Shown here piece after piece: positions 32,681 through 50,049 of a stretch of DNA of 64,000 nucleotides. This DNA is from a virus. Its lineage: Duplodnaviria > Caudoviricetes. The stretch lies in the IMG/VR virus record IMGVR_UViG_3300031951_000008; one strand, written 5' to 3'. The notes beneath the pieces were generated by a model, which worked only from the letters and a program-made list of their open reading frames with translations, did not search any database and was not told the origin of the DNA. A program made the position numbers and the translations under genes. Every line of letters begins with the position of its first letter. The first letter of the stretch is position 1.

Positions 32681-32682
32681 TT

Positions 32683-35587: not shown

Positions 35588-35710
35588 CTGTCAATTCAAC
35601 AAGGCTCTGTAGCTGCCACACAAACGTATAGACTACCCACGTGCGGGACCACATGTTTAACGGCCTAACAAATGAAGCACAAGACATAATTCAAAACGGG
35701 AACCGAGCAA

Positions 35711-35905
35711 ATGAATCTAGACGAAACAGCCAAAAGAAAAGTAGACGCATTGATCCACATACTAGAGGGCGAAGTCATGCTCCTAAGGGACACTGTTCAC
35801 GAATCAATGCACTGGAACGACGCTAGGGCAGCACAAGTAGCGATATCCAAAATCCAATCAAGTGCAAACAAGATCCTCCTTGCCCTAGGGATAGAGAAGA
35901 CATAA
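35711..35905 (+). CDS. Small helical hypothetical protein
   Basis: ORF in the + strand run; not a family member. Confidence 0.6.
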   Translation: MNLDETAKRKVDALIHILEGEVMLLRDTVHESMHWNDARAAQVAISKIQSSANKILLALGIEKT

Positions 35906-35966
35906 ACGAACATCCACTAAAAACCATGGCCCACACCTAAACATAGGCATAGGATAAATCACGATA

Positions 35967-36170
35967 ATGAAAGACAAACTCATAAAACTGATCGAAAGCA
36001 CTCACGGCCCCATGGAATGGGGAGGATCAATGGGCTGGGGAGACGGCATAATCACCTGCTCAGTTAAAAAAGATGACATGATAATCAAGGGAGTGAGTGG
36101 CGGTGATTGCACATCGCTTGAAGCCCTAATCGATCTAGCTAGCAAATTGAATATTAAACTCGGAACATAA
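35967..36170 (+). CDS. Small hypothetical protein
   Basis: AGGA RBS; 'WGGSMGWGDG'. Confidence 0.6.
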   Translation: MKDKLIKLIESTHGPMEWGGSMGWGDGIITCSVKKDDMIIKGVSGGDCTSLEALIDLASKLNIKLGT

Positions 36171-36203
36171 AGAGCTAACAACATCGTCCCTGGGGATACA
36201 GTT

Positions 36204-36461
36204 ATGATAGCGAATGAGGCTATAGAAATCAACAAAAAGGCTACAGAAGGAAACTACGATTGCAAAGTAGCGATATTCGAGCTAATCGACGAATCGGGCG
36301 TAGACTACGCGTTTTTAAGCGGGTTTGGATATAAAGAGTCTTGGAAAGGCAAGGTCTGCTCAGGGCATCGCAATGATAATGGCACAATCACGTGGCAGCA
36401 GCCATGCGGCTGCGGTACCTACACGGCTGATGAATCTCACTTCAAAGAAATAAAGGCTTAA
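36204..36461 (+). CDS. Small hypothetical protein
   Basis: 'CSGH...PCGCG' possible metal ligands. Confidence 0.55.
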   Translation: MIANEAIEINKKATEGNYDCKVAIFELIDESGVDYAFLSGFGYKESWKGKVCSGHRNDNGTITWQQPCGCGTYTADESHFKEIKA

Positions 36462-36506
36462 GATATATGGCAACGATACTACTAGGACAACGAAGCCAAA
36501 CAACCA

Positions 36507-36977
36507 ATGAACGACCTCACCCAAGCAATCAAGCAACACCTAACCGAAATATTCGAACAAAGCCGGGCACAATATAGAAGCATGTTTGTTTCTGAAGTGC
36601 AATGCAGGCATACCATCTTCTACGATATAGAGCTAATCGACTATGATGACGATACAAGGAAGAATGGCTATCGAAATATCGGTTCAAATTACGCGACCCT
36701 ATCATACCGACTCAGCTGCACAATACCAGGCCTACACATACAAACAAGAATAGACTTCCTGAGGCAAAATGAAATAATATACGAAACCCACTACATCAAA
36801 ATCAAAAACAGCCACAACAAAGAAACAAGCACAAGCTCACCTAAGATCAAAATATCAATACTCCAACCAGACTTCCTAGACAGAATCACCACAATCGCCC
36901 AAGAACACATCAAAATAATAAACAACCCCAAACTAATGGATACTAAAATGAAAAGGGCCAACATGTTTGTCTGGTAG
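36507..36977 (+). CDS. 'IxLxDP' family member 22
   Basis: MNDLTQAIKQHL ... ISILQPDFLDRI. Confidence 0.75.
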   Translation: MNDLTQAIKQHLTEIFEQSRAQYRSMFVSEVQCRHTIFYDIELIDYDDDTRKNGYRNIGSNYATLSYRLSCTIPGLHIQTRIDFLRQNEIIYETHYIKIKNSHNKETSTSSPKIKISILQPDFLDRITTIAQEHIKIINNPKLMDTKMKRANMFVW

Positions 36978-37010
36978 GGATTTTATCAACAGGCACAGAT
37001 TATAAACTAG

Positions 37011-37634
37011 TTGTCAATTCTCCATTATCCTCTCAAGACCATGCTATACATCAAAACAATCAAAATTAGCCAAAACCACAGATGCCTCAAGCAAGGCCTA
37101 GCCATAGAAGCCAAACAACTAACACTCCTCGTCGGAGATCAAGGATCAGGCAAATCAACAATCCTACAAGGCTTGGCCCAACTAGGTCAATCTAAAGAAT
37201 CATTCATAACCATAGAGTTGACACCAGAAGGCGAAAAAGGTGTAAACTCATACTATTTCGATTCCGAAAAGCACAATCCTCGCATTAAAGACCCACATCT
37301 TTACGCCACAGCAGGCGGAAAGAACGAAGGAATCGGCTTCGCATCTGCACTAAAAAGCCGATTCCAGTCTCACGGTGAAGTAATAAAAGAATTCACTGTC
37401 AATCCCATCAAAAAGGCACAAAACTGCATCGTTAATATCGACGAGCCAGAATCAGGCCTCTCAATAAGAAATCAATATAAACTAGTCAGTGCGATCCAAG
37501 CAGCTATACATAACAAAACTCAATTCTTCATAGCCACCCACTGCCTACCACTGATTCAATCTGTAGACCAAGTCTACTCCATGGAACATCTACGATGGAT
37601 GGATGCAAAAGAGTTCATACAAACCCAAATGTAG
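37011..37634 (+). CDS. ABC-type / AAA_21-like ATPase
   Basis: Walker A 'GDQGSGKST'; signature 'QSHGE'; Walker B 'VNIDEPESGLS'; H-loop 'IATH'. Confidence 0.85.
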   Translation: MSILHYPLKTMLYIKTIKISQNHRCLKQGLAIEAKQLTLLVGDQGSGKSTILQGLAQLGQSKESFITIELTPEGEKGVNSYYFDSEKHNPRIKDPHLYATAGGKNEGIGFASALKSRFQSHGEVIKEFTVNPIKKAQNCIVNIDEPESGLSIRNQYKLVSAIQAAIHNKTQFFIATHCLPLIQSVDQVYSMEHLRWMDAKEFIQTQM

Positions 37635-37655
37635 AGACTCATAGCCTACCTAAGC

Positions 37656-37976
37656 ATGAACCAAACCATAAGTGCAATCCTCGACTACCTTAAAACAAAC
37701 CTAGGCAACCCCATAGCAGGCTCAACCGTACAATGGTACCCATCAGGCATACAAATCACCAAACCATCAATTAAATTATATATCGATATAATCATAACCG
37801 CCGACACAAAAGCCAACATAATAATTGAAGGAATTCGCTATAAAGTAGTCACCAGGGATAGTAATAGCGAAGTTGTGCAGCCCATAACAAAACGATTCAT
37901 AATATACGCACACCAGCCAAACCTCCTAGAACAAATACTAACAGCAATCAACCAAATAACACAACTCACCGACTAA
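37656..37976 (+). CDS. 'IxLxDP' family member 23
   Basis: MNQTISAILDYL ... IYAHQPNLLEQI. Confidence 0.75.
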   Translation: MNQTISAILDYLKTNLGNPIAGSTVQWYPSGIQITKPSIKLYIDIIITADTKANIIIEGIRYKVVTRDSNSEVVQPITKRFIIYAHQPNLLEQILTAINQITQLTD

Positions 37977-38004
37977 CCAGGCAGCACAAAGTCTCCGCCC
38001 TATA

Positions 38005-38409
38005 ATGACAATGCTAGAAACACTCGAAGCAATAAAAACCCACCTCAACAACGACCCCACCTTACAAACAAACCAAATATATGTCATCGGTCCCGACAGA
38101 TCAATCGGGTGGGGTAAAACGTGGGGTAAAACAGGAAGATCAGCTAATTCCCACCAAGCCAAAAGACTCCTAGCTTACCACCACTACAAGGCCAAGAGCC
38201 GAACAAGCTACGTAGCACAAATCAGCATCAAACAAGACACAATCCACATAATAAAAAGCACCCTAGACCTATTAGACCCACATCCAAGCATAGAGATCGA
38301 CCTGAACGACCCCAACTTCATCCGACAAATAGTACAAAATCTCTACCAAATCGCCCAAAAATCCCACTCTTTCGAGCTAATTCCACACTCCCCAGGAGAA
38401 TTATCATAA
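38005..38409 (+). CDS. 'IxLxDP' family member 24
   Basis: MLETLEAIKTHL ... IDLNDPNFIRQI. Confidence 0.8.
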   Translation: MTMLETLEAIKTHLNNDPTLQTNQIYVIGPDRSIGWGKTWGKTGRSANSHQAKRLLAYHHYKAKSRTSYVAQISIKQDTIHIIKSTLDLLDPHPSIEIDLNDPNFIRQIVQNLYQIAQKSHSFELIPHSPGELS

Positions 38410-38801
38410 CAAGCAAGCTCGAAACACTCCAAGCAATCCAAGACCACCTAAATCAACACCCAATAATCAAAAAACACAAACTGCCAACCCTCATCAGACC
38501 TATATATACCATATCTAGAAATATAGACTCGTATTACATAGATATATACTACACATACCCGTACCAACAAGCACTATTACGAGATAGCAAAATAACAGTA
38601 TTAAAGATAAAAATCAACGAACAACAAACACAACTAGTGATAGACTATCCCACCCAACCAAGCATCAACTACCTAGACCTACAAAATCCCAACCTCCTCG
38701 TACAACTAAACAACATCGTAGAAAACAAAATAATGCACTTCACCGAACGCATACATCCATTCATCACCATGCACAAACACGCATCCAGCCTAAACAAATA
38801 A
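38406..38801 (+). pseudogene. 'IxLxDP' family member 25; start codon lost (ATG>AAG) or ATA start; missed by the ORF track
   Basis: Open frame (ITS)KLETLQAIQDHL ... YLDLQNPNLLVQL; AAG at 38415 occupies the position of ATG in neighbours (atgctcgaaacactccaagca). Confidence 0.75.
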
Positions 38802-38802
38802 C

Positions 38803-39132
38803 ATGCTCGAAACACTCCAAGCAATAAGAGCCCACCTAAACGCCGAACCCGACCTCATAAAACACCAAATCTATCTAATTGTATCACCGCTGCATGTACC
38901 ATCCACACTCATAGCCTACCACCATATTAAAGACAAAGGACAAATAATAGGTACGTGCTTCATAGCACATATCACCATCAAAGAACACACAATAGGCATA
39001 ACAAATGACCGCCACAACAACAGCATCGACCTTAGCGACCCCAACTTCATCCAGAAAATAGTATACAACATCTGCCAACTAATAGTGCCACCAGCCGACA
39101 GAATCTTCAAAGTCGTCATACAAGACAGATAG
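38803..39132 (+). CDS. 'IxLxDP' family member 26
   Basis: MLETLQAIRAHL ... IDLSDPNFIQKI. Confidence 0.8.
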   Translation: MLETLQAIRAHLNAEPDLIKHQIYLIVSPLHVPSTLIAYHHIKDKGQIIGTCFIAHITIKEHTIGITNDRHNNSIDLSDPNFIQKIVYNICQLIVPPADRIFKVVIQDR

Positions 39133-39133
39133 C

Positions 39134-39416
39134 ATGCACGAAACGCTCCAAGCAATAAAAACCCACCTCAACGCCGACCCCGAACTCACAAAACGCCAAA
39201 TCTATCTAGTCGATTCGTCAACTAAAAACCAAGTCATAGCCTACTATAACATAAACAACAAAAGACAAATAAAAGTAGCAGAACTCACCATCCAAGAACA
39301 ACATCCACCACTACAGTATTAACCTACACGACCCCAACTGCCTAAAACAAATAACACAGCACCTCAGCTACCTAACAGGCATCATCCAGAGTTTCATGAA
39401 AGCCCTTCAAGCATGA
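39134..39416 (+). pseudogene. 'IxLxDP' family member 27, frameshifted
   Basis: MHETLQAIKTHL... stops at 39322; C-motif 'SINLHDPNCLKQI' lies in the +1 frame from about 39300 to TGA 39416. Confidence 0.8.
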
Positions 39417-39481
39417 CTACCGTGGATATAGCCGAAATGGTCGCCGATTGGGCTGCTGTGGCAGGCAAGTTGGCTCCGTAA
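39413..39481 (+). pseudogene. 22-codon remnant resembling DUF5662/HD-like proteins
   Basis: MTTVDIAEMVADWAAV; locally G-richer than its A/C-rich surroundings. Confidence 0.35.
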
Positions 39482-39489
39482 CTAATAAC

Positions 39490-39927
39490 ATGCTCGAAAT
39501 ACTCCAAGTAATCAAAGCCCACCTAGATAAAGAAGTACCCACCTATCACTACGAAATAAGACACCTCAAAAACAGTCCCGGACGCGATCTACCAATAATA
39601 ATCATCCAACACAAACAAACACCCGGAACAAAGCGAAACTCCCCTATCCACGAACCAACAGTCGCTTTCCGAGGATCAGACATCGCCCAAATCAGCATAA
39701 CAAACCAACAAGAAATCTGCCTATACTCACAAACAGACAGATTCTCTCCCGGTAACAACTCCCGCACACTAACACTCTTGTGCAATAACTACGAAGTGAA
39801 ATACGCAACCTGGGGCACAGAAGAACATGGATACAGCACAACAATCACAATAGACCTAGAAAACCCAAACAGCCTCAATATGCTAACCCAAATAATCAAA
39901 GACGCAACCACACCAAGTCCCCAATAA
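39490..39927 (+). CDS. 'IxLxDP' family member 28
   Basis: MLEILQVIKAHL ... IDLENPNSLNML. Confidence 0.8.
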   Translation: MLEILQVIKAHLDKEVPTYHYEIRHLKNSPGRDLPIIIIQHKQTPGTKRNSPIHEPTVAFRGSDIAQISITNQQEICLYSQTDRFSPGNNSRTLTLLCNNYEVKYATWGTEEHGYSTTITIDLENPNSLNMLTQIIKDATTPSPQ

Positions 39928-39961
39928 ATCAACAAGCAAGTACGTCAAAAAAGGAATAGAA

Positions 39962-40177
39962 ATGACTAAACAATACTACATCGAAATAATCCAAGAAGAA
40001 ATAAGCGGCCATATAACCCGCAGCGAGGTAAGAAAAGCCACAACAGAAGAAATCGAAGAGGCCAAGTCAAGCTATCTAGCAGGAAAATGTAAGCACAAAC
40101 TCGTACAAGACACCACTTCTCACTTATTTGACGTTAGATCTTGTGCATTATGCGGTGCAGGCTTGGGTGCGATATAA
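39962..40177 (+). CDS. Small Cys/His protein (possible zinc ribbon)
   Basis: AAGGA RBS; 'CKH....CALC'. Confidence 0.6.
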   Translation: MTKQYYIEIIQEEISGHITRSEVRKATTEEIEEAKSSYLAGKCKHKLVQDTTSHLFDVRSCALCGAGLGAI

Positions 40178-40214
40178 CTTCCCAGCAATAAACAAAACCA
40201 ATCAATAAACAAAA

Positions 40215-40760
40215 ATGAACGATCTAATCCAAGCAATATACGAATACATAAACCAAATACTCACCAACCAAACAAAAGACAACCCACACATCAAACAAAC
40301 AATCATAACCGCAGGCCGCCCCCAACCAAGCTACATCCACTACGTCCTAACCAACCAAACACAAAAAATAAATACCCGCATAAGATTCCCAACAAACGAA
40401 ATAAGCATAAACACCTGCTACGAACAAAAAGACCTAACCTGGCAAGGAGAACACAAAGAAGGCCATCAAACATCAAAAACAATCCCAGACATAACACTCA
40501 CACTAAACGAACCAAACACACTAAACCAAATAGCAACAATCACCAAAGAAAACATCGAAATAATACAAAACCCAACAACACTCCTAGCAATAATCCTAGG
40601 CCCCCACATAGTAGGCAAACAACACTACGAAAAACAAATAAGCCACCTCACAGAAACAAGCAAAGCACTAAAACAAGAACCATACGCAACCGAAAATCGT
40701 GCGATTTCAACCGACCCTGCGACTCTCCTAAAACTAAATCCCCAGGCCCCAAGTCGCTAA
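40215..40760 (+). CDS. 'IxLxDP' family member 29
   Basis: MNDLIQAIYEYI ... LTLNEPNTLNQI. Confidence 0.8.
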   Translation: MNDLIQAIYEYINQILTNQTKDNPHIKQTIITAGRPQPSYIHYVLTNQTQKINTRIRFPTNEISINTCYEQKDLTWQGEHKEGHQTSKTIPDITLTLNEPNTLNQIATITKENIEIIQNPTTLLAIILGPHIVGKQHYEKQISHLTETSKALKQEPYATENRAISTDPATLLKLNPQAPSR

Positions 40761-40768
40761 AAACCAAC

Positions 40769-41344
40769 ATGAACGATCTGCTCCAAGCAATAAAAAACCA
40801 CATCGAACAAACACTAACCAACCAATTAAAGCACATAAACTATACAATCAAAGCAATAAGCACCTCAAAACCAAGATATATCCATTACCGCATAAATAAC
40901 GACAAGCAAAACATCTCCTGCTTCCTCTGGATATACAAAGACTTATCAATCCAAATAGAAACCATCTGCGGAGAAAAAGACCTAACACTAGAAGGCAAAG
41001 AACAAGAAGACTATATACGAGGCTATAAACTAAGCTATGAAATAACCAAAACAATCCCAAAAATAACACTCACACTAAACGAACCCCACTCACTAGACAC
41101 AATAACTGCAATCACCAAAGAAAACACCGAAATAATACAAAACCCAATAACACTCCGAGCAATAATCCTAGGACCAGAAAAAACAACCACAGAACAATAC
41201 GAAGAACAATACGAACAAATAAGCCACCTAAAAGAAACAAGCAAAGCACTAAAACGGCAACCACATATAATAAACCGGTATAGTAAACACAAAACGCTAC
41301 TTAGCTCAGCGGACAAAGTAAACTTATGCCGTGCAAATAAATAG
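40769..41344 (+). CDS. 'IxLxDP' family member 30 (recent duplicate of member 29)
   Basis: MNDLLQAIKNHI ... LTLNEPHSLDTI. Confidence 0.8.
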   Translation: MNDLLQAIKNHIEQTLTNQLKHINYTIKAISTSKPRYIHYRINNDKQNISCFLWIYKDLSIQIETICGEKDLTLEGKEQEDYIRGYKLSYEITKTIPKITLTLNEPHSLDTITAITKENTEIIQNPITLRAIILGPEKTTTEQYEEQYEQISHLKETSKALKRQPHIINRYSKHKTLLSSADKVNLCRANK

Positions 41345-41600
41345 AATTATAAATAATTAGAAACATTTCTTTGAAAACGGGCCTAGAAAGAAAGCTAAAA
41401 CAGGGCCTAAAAGAAGCTACGGAAGTAATGAAGTAGGGCCGCCGAGCCCTTTGAGCCCGGCTCCCTTAATTCCGGGCCTCACGTGACGAGAGTTCAACCG
41501 GACGCAAAGGAAGGCCCTTCCTGAGCCTGTCTTGGGCGTTATCTGACTTTTCTTTGACATTTTTATTTCCAGGGAGGAAATGTGCCTATTGGTCAGTTGA
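41345..41600. other. Strand-composition switch region; candidate replication origin
   Basis: Non-coding; AT-rich tract 41335-41372; direct repeats AAAAC(A)GGGCCTA..AAAGAA(A)GCTA at 41374-41419; several GGGCC/GGCCC motifs; A+C-rich to the left, G+T-rich to the right. Confidence 0.5.
41566..41581 (+). repeat. Dispersed 16-bp site copy 1 (TTTCCAGGGAGGAAAT)
   Basis: Exact match among 5 copies. Confidence 0.95.
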
Positions 41601-41631
41601 CCTAAGGGTTGCCCGGTGGCGTGCTTATCGC

Positions 41632-41835
41632 TTATTGGCTGCCCGGTCGGGTTGTTGCTTTGGTGCGTTCGTGTAGTTGTTGTGCTTGTTGGTCTACTTG
41701 GTTCATTCTTTGTACTACGTCTTGTAGGCTTTTGGCTTCTTGTTCGACCAGGTTTGGGTATTTTGTTGTTTTATACTGTTTTTGCCAGGCCCAGTTGTTT
41801 GTTGTTTTTCTTAGTTGTTCCCATATGGTTTTCAT
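41632..41835 (-). CDS. Small Q/T-rich hypothetical protein
   Basis: ATGA-type overlap; A/C-rich coding strand. Confidence 0.5.
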   Translation of the reverse strand: MKTIWEQLRKTTNNWAWQKQYKTTKYPNLVEQEAKSLQDVVQRMNQVDQQAQQLHERTKATTRPGSQ

Positions 41836-42037
41836 TGGTCTAACAGGTTTTCTATTATGATTGTTGGTATAATGTAGTCTATGATGTTGGGTGTTTGGCT
41901 TGGCTTGCCTTGGTTGTTGCTAGTTTTTTGTTGGTCTTTTTTCTTTGGTGGGGGTACTGATGTGGGTGCGTTTCTGGTGGTTTGTTTTGGGGTTGGTGGT
42001 GTTCCGTTGGTTCCCATGTTTTTCTCTCTGCTTCTGG

Positions 42038-42154
42038 TTATTCGTTCCACCACCATCGTTTTGTTAGTGTGAGGGTGGCTTCTATGATTGTTTGTGCGCA
42101 GTAGATGAGGGCTAGTATGATTATGATTGCTATTGGTATGATGATCGGTAGCAT
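42038..42154 (-). CDS. Putative 38-aa membrane peptide
   Basis: MLPIIIPIAIIIILALIYCAQTIIEATLTLTKRWWWNE. Confidence 0.4.
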   Translation of the reverse strand: MLPIIIPIAIIIILALIYCAQTIIEATLTLTKRWWWNE

Positions 42155-42217
42155 GAAACTGATTAGGGCTACCCATGCTCCGGCTGTTGTGTCTGGCTTC
42201 ATTCCAAGGCCTTTTTG

Positions 42218-42249
42218 ATCAAACGTAATTATTATAAATTACGTTTGAT
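42218..42249. other. Perfect 13-6-13 inverted repeat (recombinase- or operator-like)
   Basis: ATCAAACGTAATT-ATTATA-AATTACGTTTGAT, intergenic. Confidence 0.85.
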
Positions 42250-42299
42250 TCGAATTTGTTTTGCTTGTATGTGTATTCTTTGGTGATTATGAGGCTTGG

Positions 42300-42321
42300 T
42301 TTCCAGGGAGGAAATCGCGTG
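42300..42321 (+). repeat. Dispersed site copy 2 (TTTCCAGGGAGGAAATCGCGTG)
   Basis: Abuts the stop codon of the 42322-42825 gene. Confidence 0.95.
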
Positions 42322-42825
42322 CTATGTGGTGATTGTTTTTCTTGTTTCTCCGGCTAATTTCCTTTTTTCTCCGGCTAGTTGTTGTTCTTGGGTTGGGATG
42401 ATTGCTTTGAGGTCTTGCTGGACTTCGTAGTTGACGCATTCTACGGTTTGGCCGGGTTTGATTACTGTTGCGTAGTCTTTGATTGTATCTCCGTTTGTTG
42501 CGATTAGGTGTTGCTTGGTGATTGGGGTTAGTGTTGTGTAGGGTATGAATGTTATTGGGTCGAGGATTGTTGCATGGTCTTGGTAGTCTTTTGAGTAGAT
42601 TCTCCAGGTTTCTTGGTTTATTTGTATTTCTTTTTCGAATTTGTATTCTTTGCTTTTTTCTTGGATGGTCATGGGTTGTTCCTTATTCTTTGTTGATTCG
42701 ATTGGTTGACGCGGGATTGGTGTCGTCGCCATGGTCGTTACCAGTAAACTATTTTGTTTCCAGGTTGGCCATTTATCTACCGTCTTTTTTGCGGTTTGTA
42801 ACGCTTCTTGGAATTTCTTGTCCAT
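42322..42825 (-). CDS. Hypothetical protein
   Basis: A/C-rich ORF. Confidence 0.6.
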   Translation of the reverse strand: MDKKFQEALQTAKKTVDKWPTWKQNSLLVTTMATTPIPRQPIESTKNKEQPMTIQEKSKEYKFEKEIQINQETWRIYSKDYQDHATILDPITFIPYTTLTPITKQHLIATNGDTIKDYATVIKPGQTVECVNYEVQQDLKAIIPTQEQQLAGEKRKLAGETRKTITT

Positions 42826-42897
42826 CTTCTGTTGTTTATTTGTGTGTATTCTTTGGTTTGTTGTTTGTTGCCATAGGTATGTAGTGGCTGTATCTTA

Positions 42898-44592
42898 GTG
42901 ATTTTTTACTTAGGATATTCGGTGGTTATTATGGGTAAGGTTTGGGTTGAGTGTGATGTTCTTGAAGAGGGTGAACATAATTATCTTGTGGCTTTTTCAG
43001 GTGCTGCTGTACCGAGTGGTCTGAATTTGCAGAGGGCTACGCAGCAGGATCGTGGTTGTTTTTGGGCTCCTAAGTCTTCTTGCCGTCAAGATGCTATTGA
43101 GAAGATCGATAAGGGGCCTGTGTACAAGGTTGGTGATTTTGTCAAGGTGGTTGGGTCTCATGTTTGTTTTGGCATGATCCGCAAGGTTACTGAAGTTTTA
43201 AACGATGGTCATGGCCGATTCTACTACATGATTGAAGACTTTGAGCTTTCTATTCGCGAAGATTCCCTTGTGCCTGCTGCTGATGATCCTCGTTTTGTGT
43301 TAGACAACCTCAATAGGAATATGAGGGAGGCGCGGCAACGGGGTGCAGTTGCTTCGTTTCAGGTTGGTAAGGTTTTAGATGTTGGGGATTTGTTGGTTTC
43401 TCGTGATGGGCCTCATACTTTCGTTGTTCGGGATGAGAGCCAAGGTCTTTTTCTTGTGCATTTTTTGGCGAATGGTAGCTTTACTGGTTCGCCTTTTGCG
43501 ATTCAGAATACGGGTTTGGTTCAGCTCTTGGCTGTTCCGACCAATCTTCAGATTATCAGCATGCTTAAGGCCGGTGAGTGTTCTTTGAGGGAGGCTTTAT
43601 GCTTGCCTGGTCATGATTACTTGAGGTCCATGCTCGATAGTGATCGGAGTCCACCTGGACTTAGGGCGAGCAGGACTACTTTTGGGTTGATTAGTGTGTT
43701 GCCGACTATTGTTATGCAGTCTGGCAAGAGAGTTATCTCTCAGTATACGGTTGTTGATTGTTCGTTTAGTACTTTGGATAAGTTGATTGAGCTTGTTCCT
43801 GCCGCTTGTTTTCCGCTCGATGGTGTTAGCTTGTCTGACTATTCGAAGTCCGATTGTCTGGGAACGCCAGGTAGTGATAATATATCGACCGAATCGCAGA
43901 AACTGTTTGAACCAGCCGACATAATGCCCCGATCAGAACACGAGCCTTCGAAAGACTCTTTACCACAGGAACAGACTCCTGACGGCGATGATGAGCTTGC
44001 TATCTCAAGACTTCATTGTAGGCTAGCTGGTCTTGAAGCAAGGATTGATAGTTTGTCTAAGAGGATAGAACTTTTAGAGGCTTCTTCTAAGCGTAGTGCC
44101 TTTGAATCTAGTGTCAATAATACTCCTGTTGACTTGGTACGCCAATGCATCGCTAAGGGTTGTTCTTTGCAGACGATTTCAGATACCCTTTATTCTGTTT
44201 TGGGCGACTCTCGCACGCAGGACGAGGTTAGTATGGGTGTTGCTCATCCTTTCCTTGCTTCGAATCTTAAGTTGTTCTTTTCGCCTGTTAGCGTTAAGGA
44301 TTTTGGTAAGCAGTGCTTGTTTTTCGTTGAGCCCGGCCCTGATAAGGATGCTATTCCTGTGATTGGTGTTATCAAAGGGGTTGAGAATGTTATAGACATC
44401 AAGGATGGTAATTCTTTTTGTGGGACAGCTTCTAATATTAGTTATATGTCACTGAATGGTTCGTTGCCTCAGTTTATTGGTTGCTGTCGCGTTGATAAAG
44501 ATAGTCCTCCGCGTGATTTGTGTAGTCTTACGTCTCTAGGCCCGGTGCCGATGGTTCTGAATACGAGTTTAGCTCAGTTTATGGTTGAGTAA
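42898..44592 (+). CDS. Hypothetical multidomain protein (564 aa), possible KOW/SH3-like segment
   Basis: 'YKVGDFVKVV'; long ORF with G/T-ending codons. Confidence 0.7.
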   Translation: MIFYLGYSVVIMGKVWVECDVLEEGEHNYLVAFSGAAVPSGLNLQRATQQDRGCFWAPKSSCRQDAIEKIDKGPVYKVGDFVKVVGSHVCFGMIRKVTEVLNDGHGRFYYMIEDFELSIREDSLVPAADDPRFVLDNLNRNMREARQRGAVASFQVGKVLDVGDLLVSRDGPHTFVVRDESQGLFLVHFLANGSFTGSPFAIQNTGLVQLLAVPTNLQIISMLKAGECSLREALCLPGHDYLRSMLDSDRSPPGLRASRTTFGLISVLPTIVMQSGKRVISQYTVVDCSFSTLDKLIELVPAACFPLDGVSLSDYSKSDCLGTPGSDNISTESQKLFEPADIMPRSEHEPSKDSLPQEQTPDGDDELAISRLHCRLAGLEARIDSLSKRIELLEASSKRSAFESSVNNTPVDLVRQCIAKGCSLQTISDTLYSVLGDSRTQDEVSMGVAHPFLASNLKLFFSPVSVKDFGKQCLFFVEPGPDKDAIPVIGVIKGVENVIDIKDGNSFCGTASNISYMSLNGSLPQFIGCCRVDKDSPPRDLCSLTSLGPVPMVLNTSLAQFMVE

Positions 44593-44618
44593 GGTCGCTG
44601 GTTCTTTTTGGAGTTATT

Positions 44619-45005
44619 ATGAAGCCTGTTTACAAGATTTCTAGTGTTAGTATTGGTTCTGAGTCTTTGGATAATGTTGCTCTTTTCCATGCTTTTTTGC
44701 CTTACACGGATGGTTTGGTGTTTGTGGTTGATGCTGGGTCTGAGTTGTTTCGGAATTTGCAGGATTTCAATAAGCTTAGGCCTTGGATTCTTGATAGTGG
44801 TCTTTTGGATATGGCTCAGGCTGCTTTCTTTTTGAAGCGGTGTTTGGCTTGTGTTGATATTAGTTTGCTTTCGTCTGAGGCGGCTGCTGATGCTCGTGCT
44901 AATGAGGCGGCTGCTAATGATTTTGTTGTGGATTTTATTAAGCATAAGTGTGTTACGGAGTTTTCTTTGAATCATAACAAGGGGGATTTTTCTGCTATTC
45001 TTTGA
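44619..45005 (+). CDS. Hypothetical protein
   Basis: GGAG RBS. Confidence 0.7.
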   Translation: MKPVYKISSVSIGSESLDNVALFHAFLPYTDGLVFVVDAGSELFRNLQDFNKLRPWILDSGLLDMAQAAFFLKRCLACVDISLLSSEAAADARANEAAANDFVVDFIKHKCVTEFSLNHNKGDFSAIL

Positions 45006-45031
45006 GTTCGCTTTATTTGCCATATTAGGTT

Positions 45032-45220
45032 GAGGCTTTTTAGCGGGGGCCACAGCTCGGTATGAACGAGGGCTCCTTCGCAGGTCGTAGGGGATGCTTC
45101 GGACCGTACTTGATTGCGACGACGGTGATCAAGTTAGATGTCCTCTTGATGGACGTGTTCGAAAGTAGGTGCGACCGCAGGCATGCGGTTTAATCCTTCT
45201 GGCCCCCGCTAAAGGGTCTC
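45032..45220 (+). ncRNA. Putative ~190-nt multi-stem structured RNA
   Basis: 21-bp terminal stem (45032-52 with 45200-20, 3 G-U pairs); internal stems GGTCGTA/TGCGACC, ACTTGATTGC/GTGATCAAGT, ATGTCC/GGACGT, ACCGCA/TGCGGT. Confidence 0.65.
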
Positions 45221-45235
45221 ATAACACTATAATAA

Positions 45236-45257
45236 TTTCCAGGGAGGAAATCGCGTG
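45236..45257 (+). repeat. Dispersed site copy 3
   Basis: TTTCCAGGGAGGAAATCGCGTG. Confidence 0.95.
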
Positions 45258-45587
45258 CTACGTATGATGTATAGGCTTTGTTTGGTTCCGTTTGTTTGGC
45301 CCTATTATGTTCTTCGGAACCTTGTTTACTACAGGTTTGAGCATGGTGTGAGTCCTGCTTTGTTTGATGAGATGCAGGCTGAGGCCGATAGGATACAGGC
45401 TCAGGGTGGTGATGAGCGAGATAATGCGTACTTCAAGCTTGTTTTGACGAAGTGTGTATTGTCTAGGGTTGGGCTTCGTGTTGTTGATGTGGCAGAGGAC
45501 GTGGTTCCTTGGTACATTCCTCTTTCAGAGATTCAGCGTGATTATCGTCAGATGGTTGAGGTATATGGTTATAAGGTCGGCCTTTAG
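45255..45587 (+). CDS. Hypothetical protein
   Basis: GTG or nearby ATG start just after the repeated site. Confidence 0.65.
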   Translation: MLRMMYRLCLVPFVWPYYVLRNLVYYRFEHGVSPALFDEMQAEADRIQAQGGDERDNAYFKLVLTKCVLSRVGLRVVDVAEDVVPWYIPLSEIQRDYRQMVEVYGYKVGL

Positions 45588-45612
45588 CAAATCTATTGTT
45601 AAGGAGACTATT

Positions 45613-46068
45613 ATGCCACGTAAAGCAAGACGACCAGACGTTGAATTGACTACTCAGCAGGGGAATCCTGCTAATGCCATTAAGAGTGTTTATCCGCAGT
45701 TGATGGCTATTGATGATACTAATGAACTTGTGCAGTTTGCGTTACAAACTGTGGAGCCTTTGGTCGGTCATGGGATGAGCCCGGCAAATTATGCTAAGTT
45801 TGTGAAGAATCTTGAAGCGTCGTCTAAGAAGGGTGTGACGGATGTCAAGTTCTTTTTGACGAATTTTCTTCTTGCGGCAGATAATCAGTCAGTTATCAAT
45901 CCGGGTGGTCCTAGGGTTTTTAAGAACTCGATTGAGGCGATTGCGGCTTGCATTGCTGAGGATTTGTCTGATCCGTATTTGAATCAGGTTGAGGTTCTTA
46001 CGCCTCGTCAGCAGGAATTGAAGTTTCTTATTGAGTCTCATACTGATTTTATTGTTGTGTTTTCGTAA
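45613..46068 (+). CDS. Hypothetical protein (MPRKARRPDV...)
   Basis: AAGGAG RBS before ATG 45613. Confidence 0.75.
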   Translation: MPRKARRPDVELTTQQGNPANAIKSVYPQLMAIDDTNELVQFALQTVEPLVGHGMSPANYAKFVKNLEASSKKGVTDVKFFLTNFLLAADNQSVINPGGPRVFKNSIEAIAACIAEDLSDPYLNQVEVLTPRQQELKFLIESHTDFIVVFS

Positions 46069-46085
46069 TATAGGCTCGTAACGTA

Positions 46086-46107
46086 TTTCCAGGGAGGAAA
46101 TCGCGTG
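46086..46107 (+). repeat. Dispersed site copy 4
   Basis: TTTCCAGGGAGGAAATCGCGTG. Confidence 0.95.
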
Positions 46108-46114
46108 TGGGCCT

Positions 46115-46690
46115 GTGTGGTGGGTTAATATTTTGAGTTCTGAGTTTGATAATGTATGTGCTGAACGTGATAGCTTAGTTGCGTTAGCGGGCTTTATCTT
46201 GTCCGAGAGGCCTGGTTTTCGCATTTCTATTCAGAGTCAGTTGTTTGCGTGGAAAACTTTTAATTATAGTTGCATTGTTGTTAAGGCTTGCTGGTTAACT
46301 CTTCAGACAATTCCTATCAGTTGTCCGATGTGCAATCCTGAGGAGCAACAGGTTGTACCGTATGGGGAATCCGGCCTCGATAGATGGCTTTCGTTTGTTT
46401 CTACACACTTTGGTTTAGTAGCCAGCTACGGTCCGGGTGATCGTCGTACAGAGAAGAAGATGGTGTACGTCGAGCTAGCGAGTATAAATTTGTCTTCTGC
46501 TATAGCTAAGTTTATTAGTCAAAATGGCCACCGTTATACGATTAAGAAATGGTGTCCTGAAGATCCTGATTCTTTGAATTGGCTGCTTGGTAGATTGGAT
46601 GCGTGTCTTGATAGCATCCGAAGGATCGGTATTTGTAAAGAATTTGAGTTTTTGAAGGACTCGACCCCTAATCCTGCTTCACTGCTGTGA
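46115..46690 (+). CDS. Hypothetical protein; C-terminal 'CPEDPDSLNWL' faintly resembles the paralog-family motif
   Basis: CPMC motif; start uncertain. Confidence 0.55.
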   Translation: MWWVNILSSEFDNVCAERDSLVALAGFILSERPGFRISIQSQLFAWKTFNYSCIVVKACWLTLQTIPISCPMCNPEEQQVVPYGESGLDRWLSFVSTHFGLVASYGPGDRRTEKKMVYVELASINLSSAIAKFISQNGHRYTIKKWCPEDPDSLNWLLGRLDACLDSIRRIGICKEFEFLKDSTPNPASLL

Positions 46691-46729
46691 TAGCAGGTTT
46701 GGTGGTATTATATGGCGGAGACCTGGTCT

Positions 46730-47029
46730 CTATGAATTACTATTCAGCTTGATCTTGTAGTTCTGGTTGCGTATTATGGATAGTGCGTCGGCGGATAGCT
46801 TTGGTTCATACTGGTCTTGCTTGGCTGCGTTGTATAGCCATTGCATGACGTAGATGTTTACTCCGCAAAGCCTTTCATACCTAGCTATGAGTTCATGGGA
46901 TGGCGTGGCTTGGCCGTTTTCGATGTTGCTGATGTAAACGGTGGTTATCCCTAGCAGTTCAGCTAGTTTTGCCTGGGTTAGGCCTAGTGTGTGCCTAACT
47001 GATTTTGCTGCTTGTCCTATGTCTTTCAT
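46730..47029 (-). CDS. XRE-family HTH transcriptional regulator
   Basis: 'VRHTLGLTQAKLAELLGITTVYISNIENGQATPS'; start re-assigned to ATG 47029. Confidence 0.85.
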   Translation of the reverse strand: MKDIGQAAKSVRHTLGLTQAKLAELLGITTVYISNIENGQATPSHELIARYERLCGVNIYVMQWLYNAAKQDQYEPKLSADALSIIRNQNYKIKLNSNS

Positions 47030-47682
47030 TGGAGTCCTCTTGCTTTCAGGGTTAGTTGGAATTCTTGTTTGAACCATTGGGCGTAGATGTTTGTTGCGGT
47101 GTTTGCGTTGATTATTGGGACTTCGCAAATTTCGATGATTTTTCTGGGGTTGAGCATTTTATTGATGTCGGTCGAGGTTTTCATGTCTTTTTTCTCATAG
47201 AAACAGATTTTGACCTTTGTTTGGCTTTGTAGATTTTTGTATAGGTCATTGTAGTGTTGTGTGATTGATTTGCTGGTGAATGTAATTGGTTTGGTGATTA
47301 CGGTGAAGTTGTCGCCTAGTGGCTGGGTGCGTGCGTGGAGTGCTTTGATGTTGTATCGCACTTTTGATTTGTCCATGTCTGCCATGATGCAGATTTGGTA
47401 GAAGTTTTTGCCGTCGTCGCCGTAGATGAGTTTGAACCAGTCTTCGGGTTTGTTGTCGCTCCATTCTGTCATGTGGTTGGCCAGTTCTTTGGCATTGTCC
47501 ATCACGAGGATGGGGGATGCTTGTTCGTTTTCTATGGCCCAGATGGTTGCAGCTACGTTTGGTGATTTTGCCTTGGCTACGATTTCCATGGCCTTTGCGG
47601 GGTTTTTGTAGGCTTTCTTGTAGTCGAAGAGTGGGACGTAGCTGAAGAGGACCTGTGGTTGTTTGGGTGCGAGGCTTACCAT
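47026..47682 (-). CDS. Hypothetical protein
   Basis: ATGA coupling to the HTH gene; AGGAG RBS. Confidence 0.7.
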   Translation of the reverse strand: MVSLAPKQPQVLFSYVPLFDYKKAYKNPAKAMEIVAKAKSPNVAATIWAIENEQASPILVMDNAKELANHMTEWSDNKPEDWFKLIYGDDGKNFYQICIMADMDKSKVRYNIKALHARTQPLGDNFTVITKPITFTSKSITQHYNDLYKNLQSQTKVKICFYEKKDMKTSTDINKMLNPRKIIEICEVPIINANTATNIYAQWFKQEFQLTLKARGLQ

Positions 47683-47748
47683 GTTTTTGCTCCTGTTGGG
47701 GGATGGGAATTGTGTATTTTTATTTGGCAGTTTTGGGGGTTGTATGAA

Positions 47749-48423
47749 TTAGAATCTGTGTCGTCCGGTTTTTACTCTGGATTTGACCATCCATGAGGTG
47801 TTGTTGTCGGATTTGTAGCCCATTTCGAGTGTGCCGTTTGGGTCTTTGTAGACGATTCCTTCGAGCAGTGGCGTTGGGTATGGTTGGTTTACTGTTTCTA
47901 CTAGGTCCCAGAGTTGTTGGCTTTGGTCTGGTTGGTAGTATTCAGCTAGGAATACGTTGTCGGTGTAGGCGTAGCCGAGTTGGTGTTCTTTGAAGTACCA
48001 TGGTTTGGTTCTTGCTTGTAGTTGTTGGTATCGGTGGAGGTATGTGGTGCCGAGGAGGTGTTGGTCGTCTTTTACTAGGATGTCCCAGATGACGATTGTG
48101 TCTTTGATGGCTTTGTGTTTTTGGTCTAATAGACCGCCGTCGAGCATGTGGTATTTGCCGTGTTGGAGTCCTATTTGCTTGGCTGTTTCGCTGATTTGGT
48201 CGATTAGCCAGCTTGGGACTGTGTAGGCTCTGAATCTTTCTGCGTGCCTGTTCCACAATTCGATTGTTTGGTCTGGGTGGATTTTGATGATGGTGCGTGA
48301 GTCGTTGTATTTGAGTTGTGGTCTGTATCCTAGGCCGACGAAGAGGTCTGCTTGGTCTTTTGGTATGCAGTTTTTGGGCCTGGGTGGGTAGATGTATTTG
48401 CTTGGTTGGACTTTGGTGATCAT
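47749..48423 (-). CDS. ATP-dependent ligase / capping-enzyme-like nucleotidyltransferase (adenylation domain only)
   Basis: Motif I 'QLKYNDSR'; 'NRH'; 'MLDGGLL'; 'IWDIL'; 'EGIVYKD'; 'WMVKSR'; AAGGAG RBS. Confidence 0.7.
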   Translation of the reverse strand: MITKVQPSKYIYPPRPKNCIPKDQADLFVGLGYRPQLKYNDSRTIIKIHPDQTIELWNRHAERFRAYTVPSWLIDQISETAKQIGLQHGKYHMLDGGLLDQKHKAIKDTIVIWDILVKDDQHLLGTTYLHRYQQLQARTKPWYFKEHQLGYAYTDNVFLAEYYQPDQSQQLWDLVETVNQPYPTPLLEGIVYKDPNGTLEMGYKSDNNTSWMVKSRVKTGRHRF

Positions 48424-48667
48424 TGTTGTCTCCTTTGGTGTAAGAAATTGTCTTCTTTTTTGTGGCGGGTGGGGGTATTTTTGTGAATGGTTTTTATACC
48501 CCTCTTTGGTGGGGTTTTAGCGGTTTGCCTTGGTCGATATTCACGGTTGGTTGGTTGCTGTCATAACCTATTATCAGATTGCTCAGCGATGGTCGCTGGG
48601 CTGGTGCTGGGCGGTGGTCGCCTGGCTTGTAATATCGGTTGGTTGTTTTTGATGAGGGTATAATACG

Positions 48668-48937
48668 ATGGCTAGTGCAACGAAAGAAGTCAAGAAGGCG
48701 AAGGCTCCTAAGGCTCCTAAGGCTCCAAAGCCTGTGGTTGACATTTCGAAGTTCCCGGTGGCTGCGAAGGCCAATCCGAAGGCGAATTACACGATTGAGG
48801 GCATGGACGGCGAGTTCCGTTACTGCTTCGACAAGTACGACCTGTCGAAGGACCCACCAGCTTCTGCAAATGGGAAGCTCCGGGTTTACGCTCGGCAGGG
48901 TTCCAAGAACTCGGCTGCTCTTTTTGAGCAGATCTAG
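48668..48937 (+). CDS. Small basic protein with (KAP)n N-terminus
   Basis: KKAKAPKAPKAPKP; GAGGG RBS. Confidence 0.7.
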   Translation: MASATKEVKKAKAPKAPKAPKPVVDISKFPVAAKANPKANYTIEGMDGEFRYCFDKYDLSKDPPASANGKLRVYARQGSKNSAALFEQI

Positions 48938-49000
48938 TTTTGGTTGATCGATCTTAGGGTCAAGCAGGTAGCCACTCCTGCTTGGCTCTTTTCCTAAAGA

Positions 49001-49064
49001 GGGGCCGGGATTCAGCGACTTTAAGCGGGATCGCTGAGCGAGTTTGTGTGGCTCGCCCGGCCCC
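49001..49064 (+). ncRNA. Three-way-junction hairpin followed by a U-rich tract (terminator or cis element)
   Basis: GGGGCCGGG/CCCGGCCCC enclosing TCAGCGA/TCGCTGA and GCGAG/CTCGC; upstream hairpin CAAGCAGG/CCTGCTTG. Confidence 0.5.
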
Positions 49065-49097
49065 TTTCTTTCCTTATTTGCTGTGGAGTTGATAAGT

Positions 49098-49733
49098 ATG
49101 AGGCGTGCCTACCTTTTTCCGTCTGATGGCAGTGGTGGTACTCGCGGTGGTGTTGCTGACGCTGATGGTGAATCATTTGAACTAGAAGTAGGTAACCGCC
49201 AAGCTGCTTCTACTCAGATGCTTGCTTTGTGTGCTCACTATGACGAGATTATGGAGTATCTTAAGCTTACCGACAGCCATGTGGGGAGAATTATTTGCTC
49301 TTCTATCGAAGCTGAGGAGCGAAGACTGTTAGCCGAGTATAATGCCGAGTTAGGCCCGCCAACAGTGCAATCAGAATCGCAATTGACGCTTGGCGGTCTG
49401 ATCGATCGATTGTCGCAGCTAGATCCTTCGATGGAGATGTGCGGAATTCGTATGCCTCACAGCTATCGAGGGTATTATAAAGATCTGGCCTTTGAATTGT
49501 GCGACAGCAAGCGGTCGAATTCACGCCAAAAAGTCGCCGACATCCTTAACACAGCAAAAAGCTGTGTTGGCAAGGACTTTGTGGGTTACAAAGGCGGTGA
49601 TTATCGTATGACGCGTGATACGCTAGTATGGATTGCCGATCACGGTAATCTTGGCGAGAAGATCATATCGATTGGTGACGATGGATTGATTGCTACGGCG
49701 AAAGATGAGTCGTCGTCACTGGGTCTGTTGTAG
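49098..49733 (+). CDS. Conserved phage hypothetical protein
   Basis: 'HSYRGYY.DLAF ... GYKGGDY.M ... WIA' pattern. Confidence 0.7.
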   Translation: MRRAYLFPSDGSGGTRGGVADADGESFELEVGNRQAASTQMLALCAHYDEIMEYLKLTDSHVGRIICSSIEAEERRLLAEYNAELGPPTVQSESQLTLGGLIDRLSQLDPSMEMCGIRMPHSYRGYYKDLAFELCDSKRSNSRQKVADILNTAKSCVGKDFVGYKGGDYRMTRDTLVWIADHGNLGEKIISIGDDGLIATAKDESSSLGLL

Positions 49734-49758
49734 GTTTACACTTGATTCACTTGTGCCT

Positions 49759-49814: not shown

Positions 49815-49832
49815 GCTCAGGTATTTAGTGGC

Positions 49833-50030: not shown

Positions 50031-50049
50031 GTTTTTACTTTTTCGGAGT

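What the first reader, a model, noticed from the sequence alone, without database searches (positions are those of the whole stretch)
36500..48500. Extreme mirror-image A+C / G+T strand asymmetry flipping at about 41.35-41.6 kb
Seen: + strand A+C content rises through the paralog array (51 of 60 bases A/C at 40261-40320) and flips to G+T (51 of 60 at 41881-41940). The bias persists on the right in both + strand genes (42898-46690) and minus-strand genes, so it is not only coding-strand bias. The switch is a non-coding gap with an AT-rich tract and direct repeats (41374-41419). Established: G/T-rich leading strands diverge from bidirectional origins. Inference: replication origin, or a region with prolonged single-strand exposure. 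The local hypermutation could be what diversifies the adjacent paralog array.
Basis: partly seen in the sequence, partly recalled or inferred. Interest (0 to 1): 0.62.

Follow-up and report, generated by a model that had tools for sequence, protein, structure and literature searches.

The report
Extreme local strand-bias flip in giant phage
In this uncultured giant phage, one DNA strand is almost only A and C at freely changeable sites for about 13 kb, then flips within 200-300 bases to almost only G and T for 12-25 kb whichever way the genes point; this most likely marks a fixed start site for DNA synthesis in both directions, but that is not proven.

Summary
Cumulative G+T (keto) skew reaches its window minimum at 41,517. 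The G+T fraction in 1-kb windows jumps from 0.23-0.31 to 0.73. That step (0.43) is five times the largest seen in 100 kb of phage T4.

At four-fold degenerate sites, plus-strand G+T falls from about 0.5 (27-30 kb) to 0.07-0.17 (37.6-41.3 kb). Right of the switch it is 0.87-0.96 in minus-strand genes and 0.75-0.85 in plus-strand genes. Unskewed genes at 1-26 kb give 0.51-0.52 in both orientations. The bias therefore follows position and strand, not coding strand.

Transition-only two-fold sites show the same shift. This implies C>T plus A>G on the strand that runs 5'>3' away from about 41.45 kb. There is no neighbour-base preference.

A close relative (about 96-97% protein identity) shares the bias. 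Genes next to the switch are as conserved as distant ones.

Best reading (about 0.45): the footprint of a fixed, bidirectional start site for DNA synthesis whose outgoing strand stays single-stranded. I could not get the whole genome or any relative's DNA, so this stays inferred. The idea that the bias diversifies the paralog array is not supported.

The scan has found similar flips and ramps in other phages.

The parts
28700..41344 (+). Left arm. Plus-strand genes of one paralog family become steadily more A+C-rich toward the switch.
   Evidence: Four-fold G+T falls from about 0.5 to 0.07-0.17. Spearman rho is -0.90 (p 4e-11) over 28 genes. A linear fit reaches 0.5 at about 28.7 kb. Two-fold sites give T/(C+T) 0.20 and G/(A+G) 0.07, against 0.66 and 0.40 at baseline. 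The share of K, N, T, Q, H and P rises from 0.27 to 0.48; F, V, G, W and C fall from 0.18 to 0.05.
41345..41530 (.). Compositionally neutral core between the convergent genes. It holds an AT-rich tract (about 41335-41375), four direct GGGCC pentamers (41379, 41403, 41436, 41474) and one inverted copy (41513). It also has short GC-rich palindromes.
   Evidence: G+T is 0.41-0.47 here. The GGGCC cluster is the densest in the window: 5 in about 140 nt, against 0.18 per 200 nt overall. A sigma-70-like site on the minus strand (41375>41346, 10/12 matches) points left, but promoter-like sites are not enriched overall. No Rfam match and no significant fold.
41531..48423 (.). Strong right arm. The plus strand is G+T-rich in genes of both orientations.
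   Evidence: Four-fold G+T is 0.87-0.96 in minus genes (41632-41835, 42038-42202, 42322-42825, 47026-47682, 47749-48423). It is 0.77 in the HTH gene (46730-47128) and 0.75-0.85 in plus genes (42898-44592, 45255-45587, 45613-46068, 46115-46690). Two-fold sites in plus genes give T/(C+T) 0.79 and G/(A+G) 0.75.
48424..60771 (.). Fading right arm.
   Evidence: Plus genes give four-fold G+T of 0.54-0.90, declining with distance (rho -0.77, p 3e-4). Beyond about 52 kb, T/(C+T) is back at baseline, but G/(A+G) stays at 0.60-0.76 and GC content rises to 0.45-0.53. Minus genes at 58936-60771 still give 0.71-0.82.
41566..41581 (+). First of five exact, co-oriented copies of TTTCCAGGGAGGAAAT. The others are at 42300, 45236, 46086 and 59573. 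All are on the plus strand, right of the switch, at gene borders.
   Evidence: 5 matches against 0.06 expected; no shuffle reached 5. No copy lies on either strand left of the switch. Any link to the skew is only inferred.
42898..44592 (+). A 564-aa plus-strand gene. It is the key witness that the bias does not follow the coding strand.
   Evidence: C-terminal 257 aa are 91% identical to P0001 from a 323,894-bp contig; the N-terminal domain is swapped. Four-fold G+T is 0.81 (A 21, C 30, G 57, T 154).

Best explanation
A fixed site at about 41.35-41.6 kb is where DNA synthesis starts and runs outward in both directions. It could be an origin of the T4 R-loop or D-loop kind, or another strand-displacing start. 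On each side, the strand that runs 5'>3' away from the site spends extra time unpaired or is re-made more often. That strand is the lagging-strand template, or equally the displaced or nascent outgoing strand. It gains C>T and A>G changes and becomes G+T-rich. The effect fades over about 13 kb on the left and 12-25 kb on the right, as if exposure or abortive synthesis shortens with distance. Most genes near the site point toward it. Minus-strand genes on the right are more skewed than plus-strand genes there, so orientation adds to the strand effect. Shown: the position- and strand-dependent, transition-type, context-free bias; its gradient; and its presence in a relative. Inferred: that DNA synthesis or single-strandedness causes it, and that the site is an origin.
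For: The sign flips within 200-300 nt, and the in-window cumulative keto minimum is at 41,517. The dominant gene orientation is plus on both sides (20.9-41.3 kb, 42.9-46.7 kb, 49-58.9 kb), yet the skew reverses. Four-fold and two-fold synonymous sites shift the same way in plus and minus genes, while genes at 1-26 kb show no strand or orientation effect (0.51 and 0.52). Third positions are more skewed than first or second positions, as expected for a mutational pressure. Both arms show monotonic gradients. No 5'-neighbour preference appears, which argues against a motif-specific deaminase. The core has an AT-rich tract and an iteron-like GGGCC cluster. In T4, oriE, oriF and oriG lie at shifts of nucleotide bias; oriF works through an R-loop that leaves the non-template strand single-stranded; oriE has iterons (PMC3016281). 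The relative's copy of the array gene (P0003) is equally rich in A/C-coded residues, so the bias is old and maintained.
Against: No origin activity, initiator gene or whole-genome skew could be examined. The skew is local, unlike classical replichore-wide skew. Genes immediately flanking the site converge on it, whereas T4 origins sit at transcriptional divergence (PMC3016281). An origin here would put the whole paralog array head-on to the fork. The sampled T4 origins (oriA, oriF) show nothing comparable: the largest 1-kb step is 0.085, against 0.43 here. The arms are unequal in length, and only the A>G part persists on the far right.
Confidence: 0.45

Rival explanations
1. A fixed double-strand break or nick lies at the site, for example a packaging or homing-endonuclease cut. 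It triggers recombination-dependent, bubble-migration repair synthesis outward, and the nascent outgoing strands stay single-stranded.
For: It gives the same outward 5'>3' geometry and a processivity-limited gradient. From my own knowledge, not tested here: T4-type phages replicate largely by recombination-dependent synthesis, and breaks act as pseudo-origins. The recombination-dependent mode is summarised in PMC3016281.
Against: No endonuclease or terminase gene was recognised near the site. Resection at a break would expose the opposite (3'-ended) strand and work against the observed sign. No evidence of ends was obtainable.
Confidence: 0.15
2. Selection, not mutation, keeps the two strands non-self-complementary near this site. 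Possible reasons are to avoid hairpins, R-loops or palindromic restriction sites, or to make unstructured A+C-rich mRNAs.
For: The bias is stable across relatives with about 97% protein identity, and protein divergence is not raised next to the switch. Most nearby genes give A+C-rich mRNAs.
Against: Plus genes on the right give G+U-rich messages, so there is no common RNA-level property. The least constrained sites are the most biased, and protein composition is dragged along, which looks like pressure rather than benefit. The smooth 13-25 kb gradient has no obvious selective logic.
Confidence: 0.15
3. Transcription-associated mutation. Heavy rightward transcription on the right arm and leftward antisense transcription over the array would expose the non-template strands.
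For: Five co-oriented 16-mers sit on the plus strand of the right arm. A leftward sigma-70-like site is at 41375>41346. Minus genes are more skewed than plus genes on the right.
Against: In the left arm, every gene is transcribed rightward, yet its coding strand is A+C-rich. That is the opposite of the non-template C>T and A>G rule. Genes at 1-26 kb show no orientation effect at all. There is no 16-mer copy on the left.
Confidence: 0.1
4. The site is a replication terminus or fork-convergence point, and in this phage the leading strand is A+C-rich.
For: The genes flanking the site converge on it, as at bacterial termini.
Against: The sign is opposite to the near-universal G-rich leading strand (established knowledge, not tested here). 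The flip is sharp and strongest at the site, which is typical of origins. Right of 42.9 kb most genes point away from the site.
Confidence: 0.07
5. The flip is an assembly join: physical genome ends, or a fold-back chimera.
For: End-initiated strand displacement would give the same mirror pattern, with the maximum at the ends.
Against: The arms share no inverted duplication, only chance 20-34 nt matches. Gene products from both flanks occur on a 323,894-bp contig of a relative (P0003 left; P0137, P0001 and P0142 right). The window's own products from both flanks occur on contigs of up to 33,988 bp. The wrong-strand ORF 42549-42884 is recorded on the 320,971-bp contig. Adjacency on those contigs was not seen directly. 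No skew-free plateau, as a terminal repeat would give, separates the arms.
Confidence: 0.04

Closest known systems
Replication-associated strand asymmetry at origins: bacterial GC/keto skew, GC skew used to call bidirectional replication in about 30% of huge phages (PMC7162821), and T4 oriE/oriF/oriG lying at shifts of nucleotide bias (PMC3016281)
   Same: The sign flips at one point. The G+T-rich strand is the one with leading-strand polarity away from the site. The bias is visible at synonymous sites whatever the gene orientation.
   Different: The amplitude is far larger: synonymous sites reach 88-98% of one base class, and the 1-kb step is 0.43 against 0.085 or less in 100 kb of T4. The skew is local, fading within 13-25 kb instead of filling a replichore. 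Flanking genes converge on the site rather than diverge from it.
Heavy/light-strand asymmetry of vertebrate mitochondrial DNA, with its gradient in time spent single-stranded (recalled from general knowledge; PMC4182315 surfaced in the paper search but only its abstract was read)
   Same: Both transitions (C>T and A>G) accumulate on one strand. The effect is strongest at four-fold sites, graded with distance from the start of synthesis, and strong enough to shift protein composition.
   Different: Here there are two mirror-image arms around an internal site in a roughly 320-kb double-stranded phage genome. The bias appears at least as strong as my recollection of mitochondrial values (not measured here). 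Whether replication is strand-displacing is unknown.
Other local strand-bias flips and ramps noted by this scan in unrelated phages (e1-5363195, e1-130834, e1-1979701, e1-5889816)
   Same: Kilobase-scale, near two-letter strands in working phage genes, independent of coding strand, and sometimes conserved among relatives.
   Different: They lie on different genomes and in different contexts (packaging end, early-region end, another giant phage). None was re-examined here, so any kinship of mechanism is unknown.

Membership tests
Replication origin marked by a strand-composition switch | Skew changes sign at the site, with G+T excess on the strand running 5'>3' away from it | tested here: met
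Replication origin marked by a strand-composition switch | Bias is independent of gene orientation at synonymous sites | tested here: met
   Right-arm plus genes give 0.75-0.85 and minus genes 0.87-0.96 four-fold G+T, against a baseline of 0.51-0.52
Replication origin marked by a strand-composition switch | Skew persists over the whole replichore, and the site is the global extremum of cumulative skew | tested here: not met
   Within the window the skew is back to baseline about 13 kb to the left. The whole genome is not held, so the global extremum could not be tested.
Replication origin marked by a strand-composition switch | Origin hardware: unwinding element, repeated binding sites, nearby initiator or priming promoter | tested here: inconclusive
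   An AT-rich tract and a GGGCC x5 cluster are present. There is a weak leftward sigma-70-like site. No initiator was recognised by Pfam or PHROGs.
Replication origin marked by a strand-composition switch | Demonstrated initiation of DNA synthesis | not testable with these tools
   Needs marker-frequency analysis, 2D gels or nascent-strand mapping
Mitochondrial-type single-strand exposure gradient | Both C>T and A>G on one strand at synonymous sites | tested here: met
   Two-fold sites: T/(C+T) and G/(A+G) both shift, from 0.66/0.40 to 0.79/0.75 in right-arm plus genes and, in coding terms, to 0.12-0.20/0.07-0.12 elsewhere
Mitochondrial-type single-strand exposure gradient | Bias graded with distance from the start point | tested here: met
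   rho -0.90 (left) and -0.77 (right plus genes)
Mitochondrial-type single-strand exposure gradient | Strand-displacement replication that leaves one strand unpaired | not testable with these tools
   No replication data are available
Transcription- or coding-strand bias | Sign of the skew follows gene orientation | tested here: not met
   Plus genes left of the switch are A+C-rich and plus genes right of it are G+T-rich at four-fold sites. Baseline genes show no orientation effect.
Motif-specific ssDNA deaminase footprint (APOBEC-like) | Strong 5'-neighbour preference of the depleted C (or A) | tested here: not met
   The shift has similar size after A, C, G or T
Fold-back or chimeric assembly join | The arms are reverse complements of each other, or the flanks never co-occur in other assemblies | tested here: not met
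   No long inverted repeat. Products of both flanks are recorded on other contigs. Read-level proof was not available.

The most novel reading that the evidence does not exclude
This giant phage starts DNA synthesis at one fixed site by a mode that leaves more than 10 kb of the outgoing strand on each side single-stranded. Examples are uncoupled, bubble-migration or repeatedly aborted leading-strand synthesis. If so, it creates an exceptionally strong strand asymmetry for a double-stranded genome. Such a start-site zone would rewrite the codons and amino acids of every gene that sits in it. It may belong to a recurrent, undescribed class of local two-letter ramps in phage genomes.
Probability: 0.15. 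Interest if true: 0.75.

Novelty: new variant of a known kind. Interest (0 to 1): 0.55.

Why it matters
If the flip marks a start site for DNA synthesis, it gives a sequence-only way to locate initiation sites in uncultured giant phages. It would also point to an unusual, strongly single-stranded replication intermediate. Whatever the cause, three consequences hold:

- The bias pushes synonymous sites to 88-98% of one base class.
- It bends protein composition: residues coded by A/C-only codons rise from 27% to 48% within one gene family.
- It misleads gene callers. A wrong-strand ORF at 42549-42884 is recorded as a protein on 13 public contigs. The true minus-strand gene is recorded only on contigs of up to 33,988 bp.

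Annotation of such zones therefore needs care.

Tried and rejected
- **Relatives' DNA.** Megablast of 36.5-48.5 kb against GenBank phages found nothing. tblastn of two window proteins gave only one remote hit.
- **Collection scans.** Four IMG/VR scans found no relative: 564-aa protein, ligase-like protein, tail protein and the 16-mer pattern.
- **Paralog alignment.** It was too diverged to use as a search query.
- **Closed or missing sources.** No whole genome is held. So neither whole-genome skew nor synonymous divergence could be computed.
- **The gap itself.** Rfam and RNA folding gave nothing significant. The T4 late-promoter motif TATAAATA is not enriched.
- **Polarising amino-acid differences.** Using the window's codons against close variants gave small, mixed counts, as expected at compositional equilibrium. 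This was uninformative.
- **Ligase-like protein.** A PDB sequence search returned only a spurious repeat match. The ligase assignment rests on a Pfam hit just below the gathering score and a weak PHROG hit.
- **Readings rejected.** Coding-strand bias, a motif-specific deaminase and a fold-back chimera were rejected; see the membership tests.
Full report
**What is there**

The window comes from an uncultured giant phage. Earlier notes of this scan call it a freshwater phage with a T4-type head. Exact copies of its proteins occur on a 320,971-bp contig. No whole genome is held for it.

Composition profiles show GC skew and AT skew changing sign together. They are -0.39/+0.51 at 40-41 kb and +0.30/-0.49 at 42-43 kb. 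The G+T (keto) fraction in 500-nt windows is 0.25-0.31 over 38-41.5 kb and 0.74 at 41.5-42 kb. Cumulative keto skew has its window minimum at 41,517.

As a yardstick, I measured 100 kb of phage T4 that includes the annotated oriA and oriF. Its 1-kb keto values span only 0.448-0.537, and its largest step between adjacent kilobases is 0.085. Here the step is 0.431.

**It is not coding-strand bias**

I measured plus-strand G+T at four-fold degenerate sites, gene by gene.

- Genes at 1-26 kb give 0.510 (plus genes, n=1515 sites) and 0.522 (minus genes, n=1530). Far from the switch there is neither a strand nor an orientation effect.
- Along the co-oriented paralog array the value falls from about 0.5 (27-30 kb) to about 0.3 (33-35 kb) and then to 0.07-0.17 (37.6-41.3 kb). 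Spearman rho is -0.90 (p 4e-11), and the fit reaches baseline at about 28.7 kb.
- Right of the switch, most minus-strand genes give 0.87-0.96. The HTH gene at 46730-47128 gives 0.77.
- Plus-strand genes at 42.9-46.7 kb give 0.75-0.85, pooled 367/457 (p about 1e-38 against 0.51).

The plus genes are real. The 564-codon frame at 42898-44592 would stay open by chance with a probability of about 1e-11 at local composition. Its C-terminal half is 91% identical to a protein from a 323,894-bp contig. Its third positions are much more skewed than its second positions. The gene at 49044-49733 matches phrog_12889.

The dominant gene orientation is plus on both sides of the switch, yet the skew reverses. 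The bias therefore follows position and DNA strand. An orientation component is added on top, because minus genes on the right are more skewed than plus genes.

**What kind of change it is**

At two-fold degenerate sites, only transitions are silent. There the baseline is T/(C+T) 0.66 and G/(A+G) 0.40-0.45, in coding-strand terms.

| Gene set | T/(C+T) | G/(A+G) |
|---|---|---|
| Baseline (1-26 kb) | 0.66 | 0.40-0.45 |
| Left-arm plus genes | 0.20 | 0.07 |
| Right-arm minus genes | 0.12 | 0.12 |
| Right-arm plus genes | 0.79 | 0.75 |

The pattern is C>T plus A>G on the strand that runs 5'>3' away from about 41.45 kb, on both sides. The shift has similar size after each 5' neighbour. That argues against a motif-specific deaminase.

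Third positions are the most skewed, then first, then second. Protein composition follows. Within one gene family, K, N, T, Q, H and P rise from 0.27 to 0.48 of residues, while F, V, G, W and C fall from 0.18 to 0.05. Plus genes on the right are enriched in F, V, G, W and C instead (0.25-0.28).

On the right the C>T part is back at baseline by about 52 kb. The A>G part and a higher GC content persist to the window's end.

**The switch itself**

The arms meet in a 190-290 nt gap between convergent genes. The last array gene ends at 41344, and a small minus-strand gene occupies 41632-41835. The core at 41345-41530 is compositionally neutral (keto 0.41-0.47).

The core holds:

- an AT-rich tract;
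- the densest GGGCC cluster of the window, with four direct copies and one inverted copy in about 140 nt;
- a few short GC-rich palindromes (read directly from the sequence).

Immediately to its right lies the first of five exact, co-oriented copies of TTTCCAGGGAGGAAAT. All five are on the plus strand and right of the switch. There is no Rfam match and no significant fold. Promoter- and terminator-like sites are not enriched. No replication initiator was recognised among the neighbouring proteins. A helix-turn-helix protein, a ligase-like protein, an SF2 helicase and a DUF932 protein lie 5-22 kb to the right.

**Artefact checks**

The arms share no inverted duplication, so this is not a fold-back chimera.

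Public protein collections record products from both flanks on other contigs:

- A 323,894-bp contig of a close relative carries P0003 (about 77-80% identical to the array gene at 40215-40760, and equally rich in A/C-coded residues). It also carries P0137, P0001 and P0142 from the right flank.
- The window's own products from both flanks occur on contigs of up to 33,988 bp.
- The wrong-strand ORF at 42549-42884 is recorded on 13 contigs, including the 320,971-bp one. The true minus-strand gene at 42322-42825 is recorded only on contigs of up to 33,988 bp, beside close variants on the relative's 323,894-bp contig and a 973-bp contig.

This shows that the zone is present in several assemblies and that the skew misleads gene callers. 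I did not see adjacency on those contigs directly. Read-level proof was not available.

**Age and rate**

Against the relative, protein identity is as follows.

| Gene | Position relative to the switch | Identity |
|---|---|---|
| Glycosyltransferase (14870-16036) | 26 kb left | 96.4% |
| Gene at 24676-25407 | 16 kb left | 97.5% |
| 167-aa gene (42322-42825) | 1 kb right | 97.6% |
| Ligase-like gene (47749-48423) | 6.6 kb right | 96.9% |

The bias is therefore shared, old and near equilibrium. Proteins next to the switch do not evolve faster. The unskewed half of the array is as diverged as the skewed half. I found no support for the idea that the bias is what diversifies the array.

**Interpretation**

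The geometry is that of DNA synthesis starting at the site and running outward both ways. The G+T-rich strand on each side is the lagging-strand template, or equally the displaced or nascent outgoing strand. Deamination of exposed single strands (C>U, A>hypoxanthine) gives exactly this signature. So do the common G.T and T.G mispairs made during repeated re-synthesis. Both points are established chemistry, not tested here.

The local, graded extent suggests exposure or abortive synthesis that shortens with distance, rather than ordinary coupled forks. T4 offers a precedent for the parts. OriE, oriF and oriG lie at shifts of nucleotide bias. OriF uses a persistent R-loop that leaves the non-template strand single-stranded. 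OriE has iterons (PMC3016281). GC skew is already used to infer bidirectional replication in huge phages (PMC7162821).

Several facts weigh against a simple origin reading:

- The skew is not replichore-wide.
- The flanking genes converge on the site.
- The array would be head-on to the fork.
- The sampled T4 origins show nothing of this size.

I put the origin-like start site at about 0.45. Rivals are a fixed break with repair synthesis (0.15), selection for strand asymmetry (0.15), transcription-associated mutation (0.10), a terminus (0.07) and an assembly join or physical ends (0.04).

**Limits**

No DNA of any relative could be fetched. Whole-genome skew, synonymous divergence and read-level checks are therefore left as next steps.

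This scan has noted similar local strand-bias flips and ramps in other phages. I did not re-examine them.

Noticed in passing
41566-41581, 42300-42315, 45236-45251, 46086-46101, 59573-59588 (+): Five exact, co-oriented copies of the quasi-palindromic 16-mer TTTCCAGGGAGGAAAT (5-6 bp stem, AGGGA loop, contains GGAGG). All lie right of the switch at gene borders. Three are followed by CGCGTG. Only the copy at 45236 is placed as a ribosome site for a long ORF. Function is unknown: a promoter, an RNA processing site or a single-strand initiation signal are possible.
   Followed up: partly
42549-42884 (+) versus 42322-42825 (-): The wrong-strand, hydrophobic junk ORF is recorded as a protein on 13 public contigs, including the 320,971-bp one. 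The plausible minus-strand gene is recorded only on contigs of up to 33,988 bp, beside close variants on the relative's 323,894-bp contig and a 973-bp contig. The extreme skew misleads automatic gene callers.
   Followed up: partly
42217-42250: A near-perfect 34-bp palindrome (arms of about 14 bp, AT-rich loop) followed by a T-run on the plus strand. It lies between two minus-strand genes and just upstream of a 16-mer copy. It is terminator- or operator-like.
   Followed up: no
42898-44592 (+): The 564-aa protein shares only its C-terminal 257 aa (91%) with the relative's 498-aa protein P0001. The N-terminal domains are unrelated, so this is a domain swap between close phages.
   Followed up: partly
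35711-36461 (+): Three small genes that do not belong to the paralog family interrupt the array. The last one (36204-36461) is much less skewed (four-fold G+T 0.48) than its neighbours (about 0.2). It may be a recent arrival that has not yet equilibrated.
   Followed up: partly
48500-64000: GC content steps up from about 0.40 to 0.45-0.53. G/(A+G) at silent sites stays at 0.60-0.76 while T/(C+T) returns to baseline or below. This is either a separate compositional domain or a long A>G tail of the right arm.
   Followed up: partly
60873-62024 (+), 62135-63406 (+): An SF2 helicase (ResIII, phrog_16) and a DUF932 protein. The helicase frame overlaps a long spurious minus-strand ORF (60783-61718). 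Its domain make-up recalls the T4 UvsW R-loop helicase; this is a recollection, not tested.
   Followed up: no
47749-48423 (-): The 224-aa ligase-like protein matches only the C-terminal part of the adenylation domain and falls just below Pfam's gathering score. The candidate lysine motif reads KYNDSR rather than the usual KxDGxR. Whether it is an active ligase is open.
   Followed up: partly
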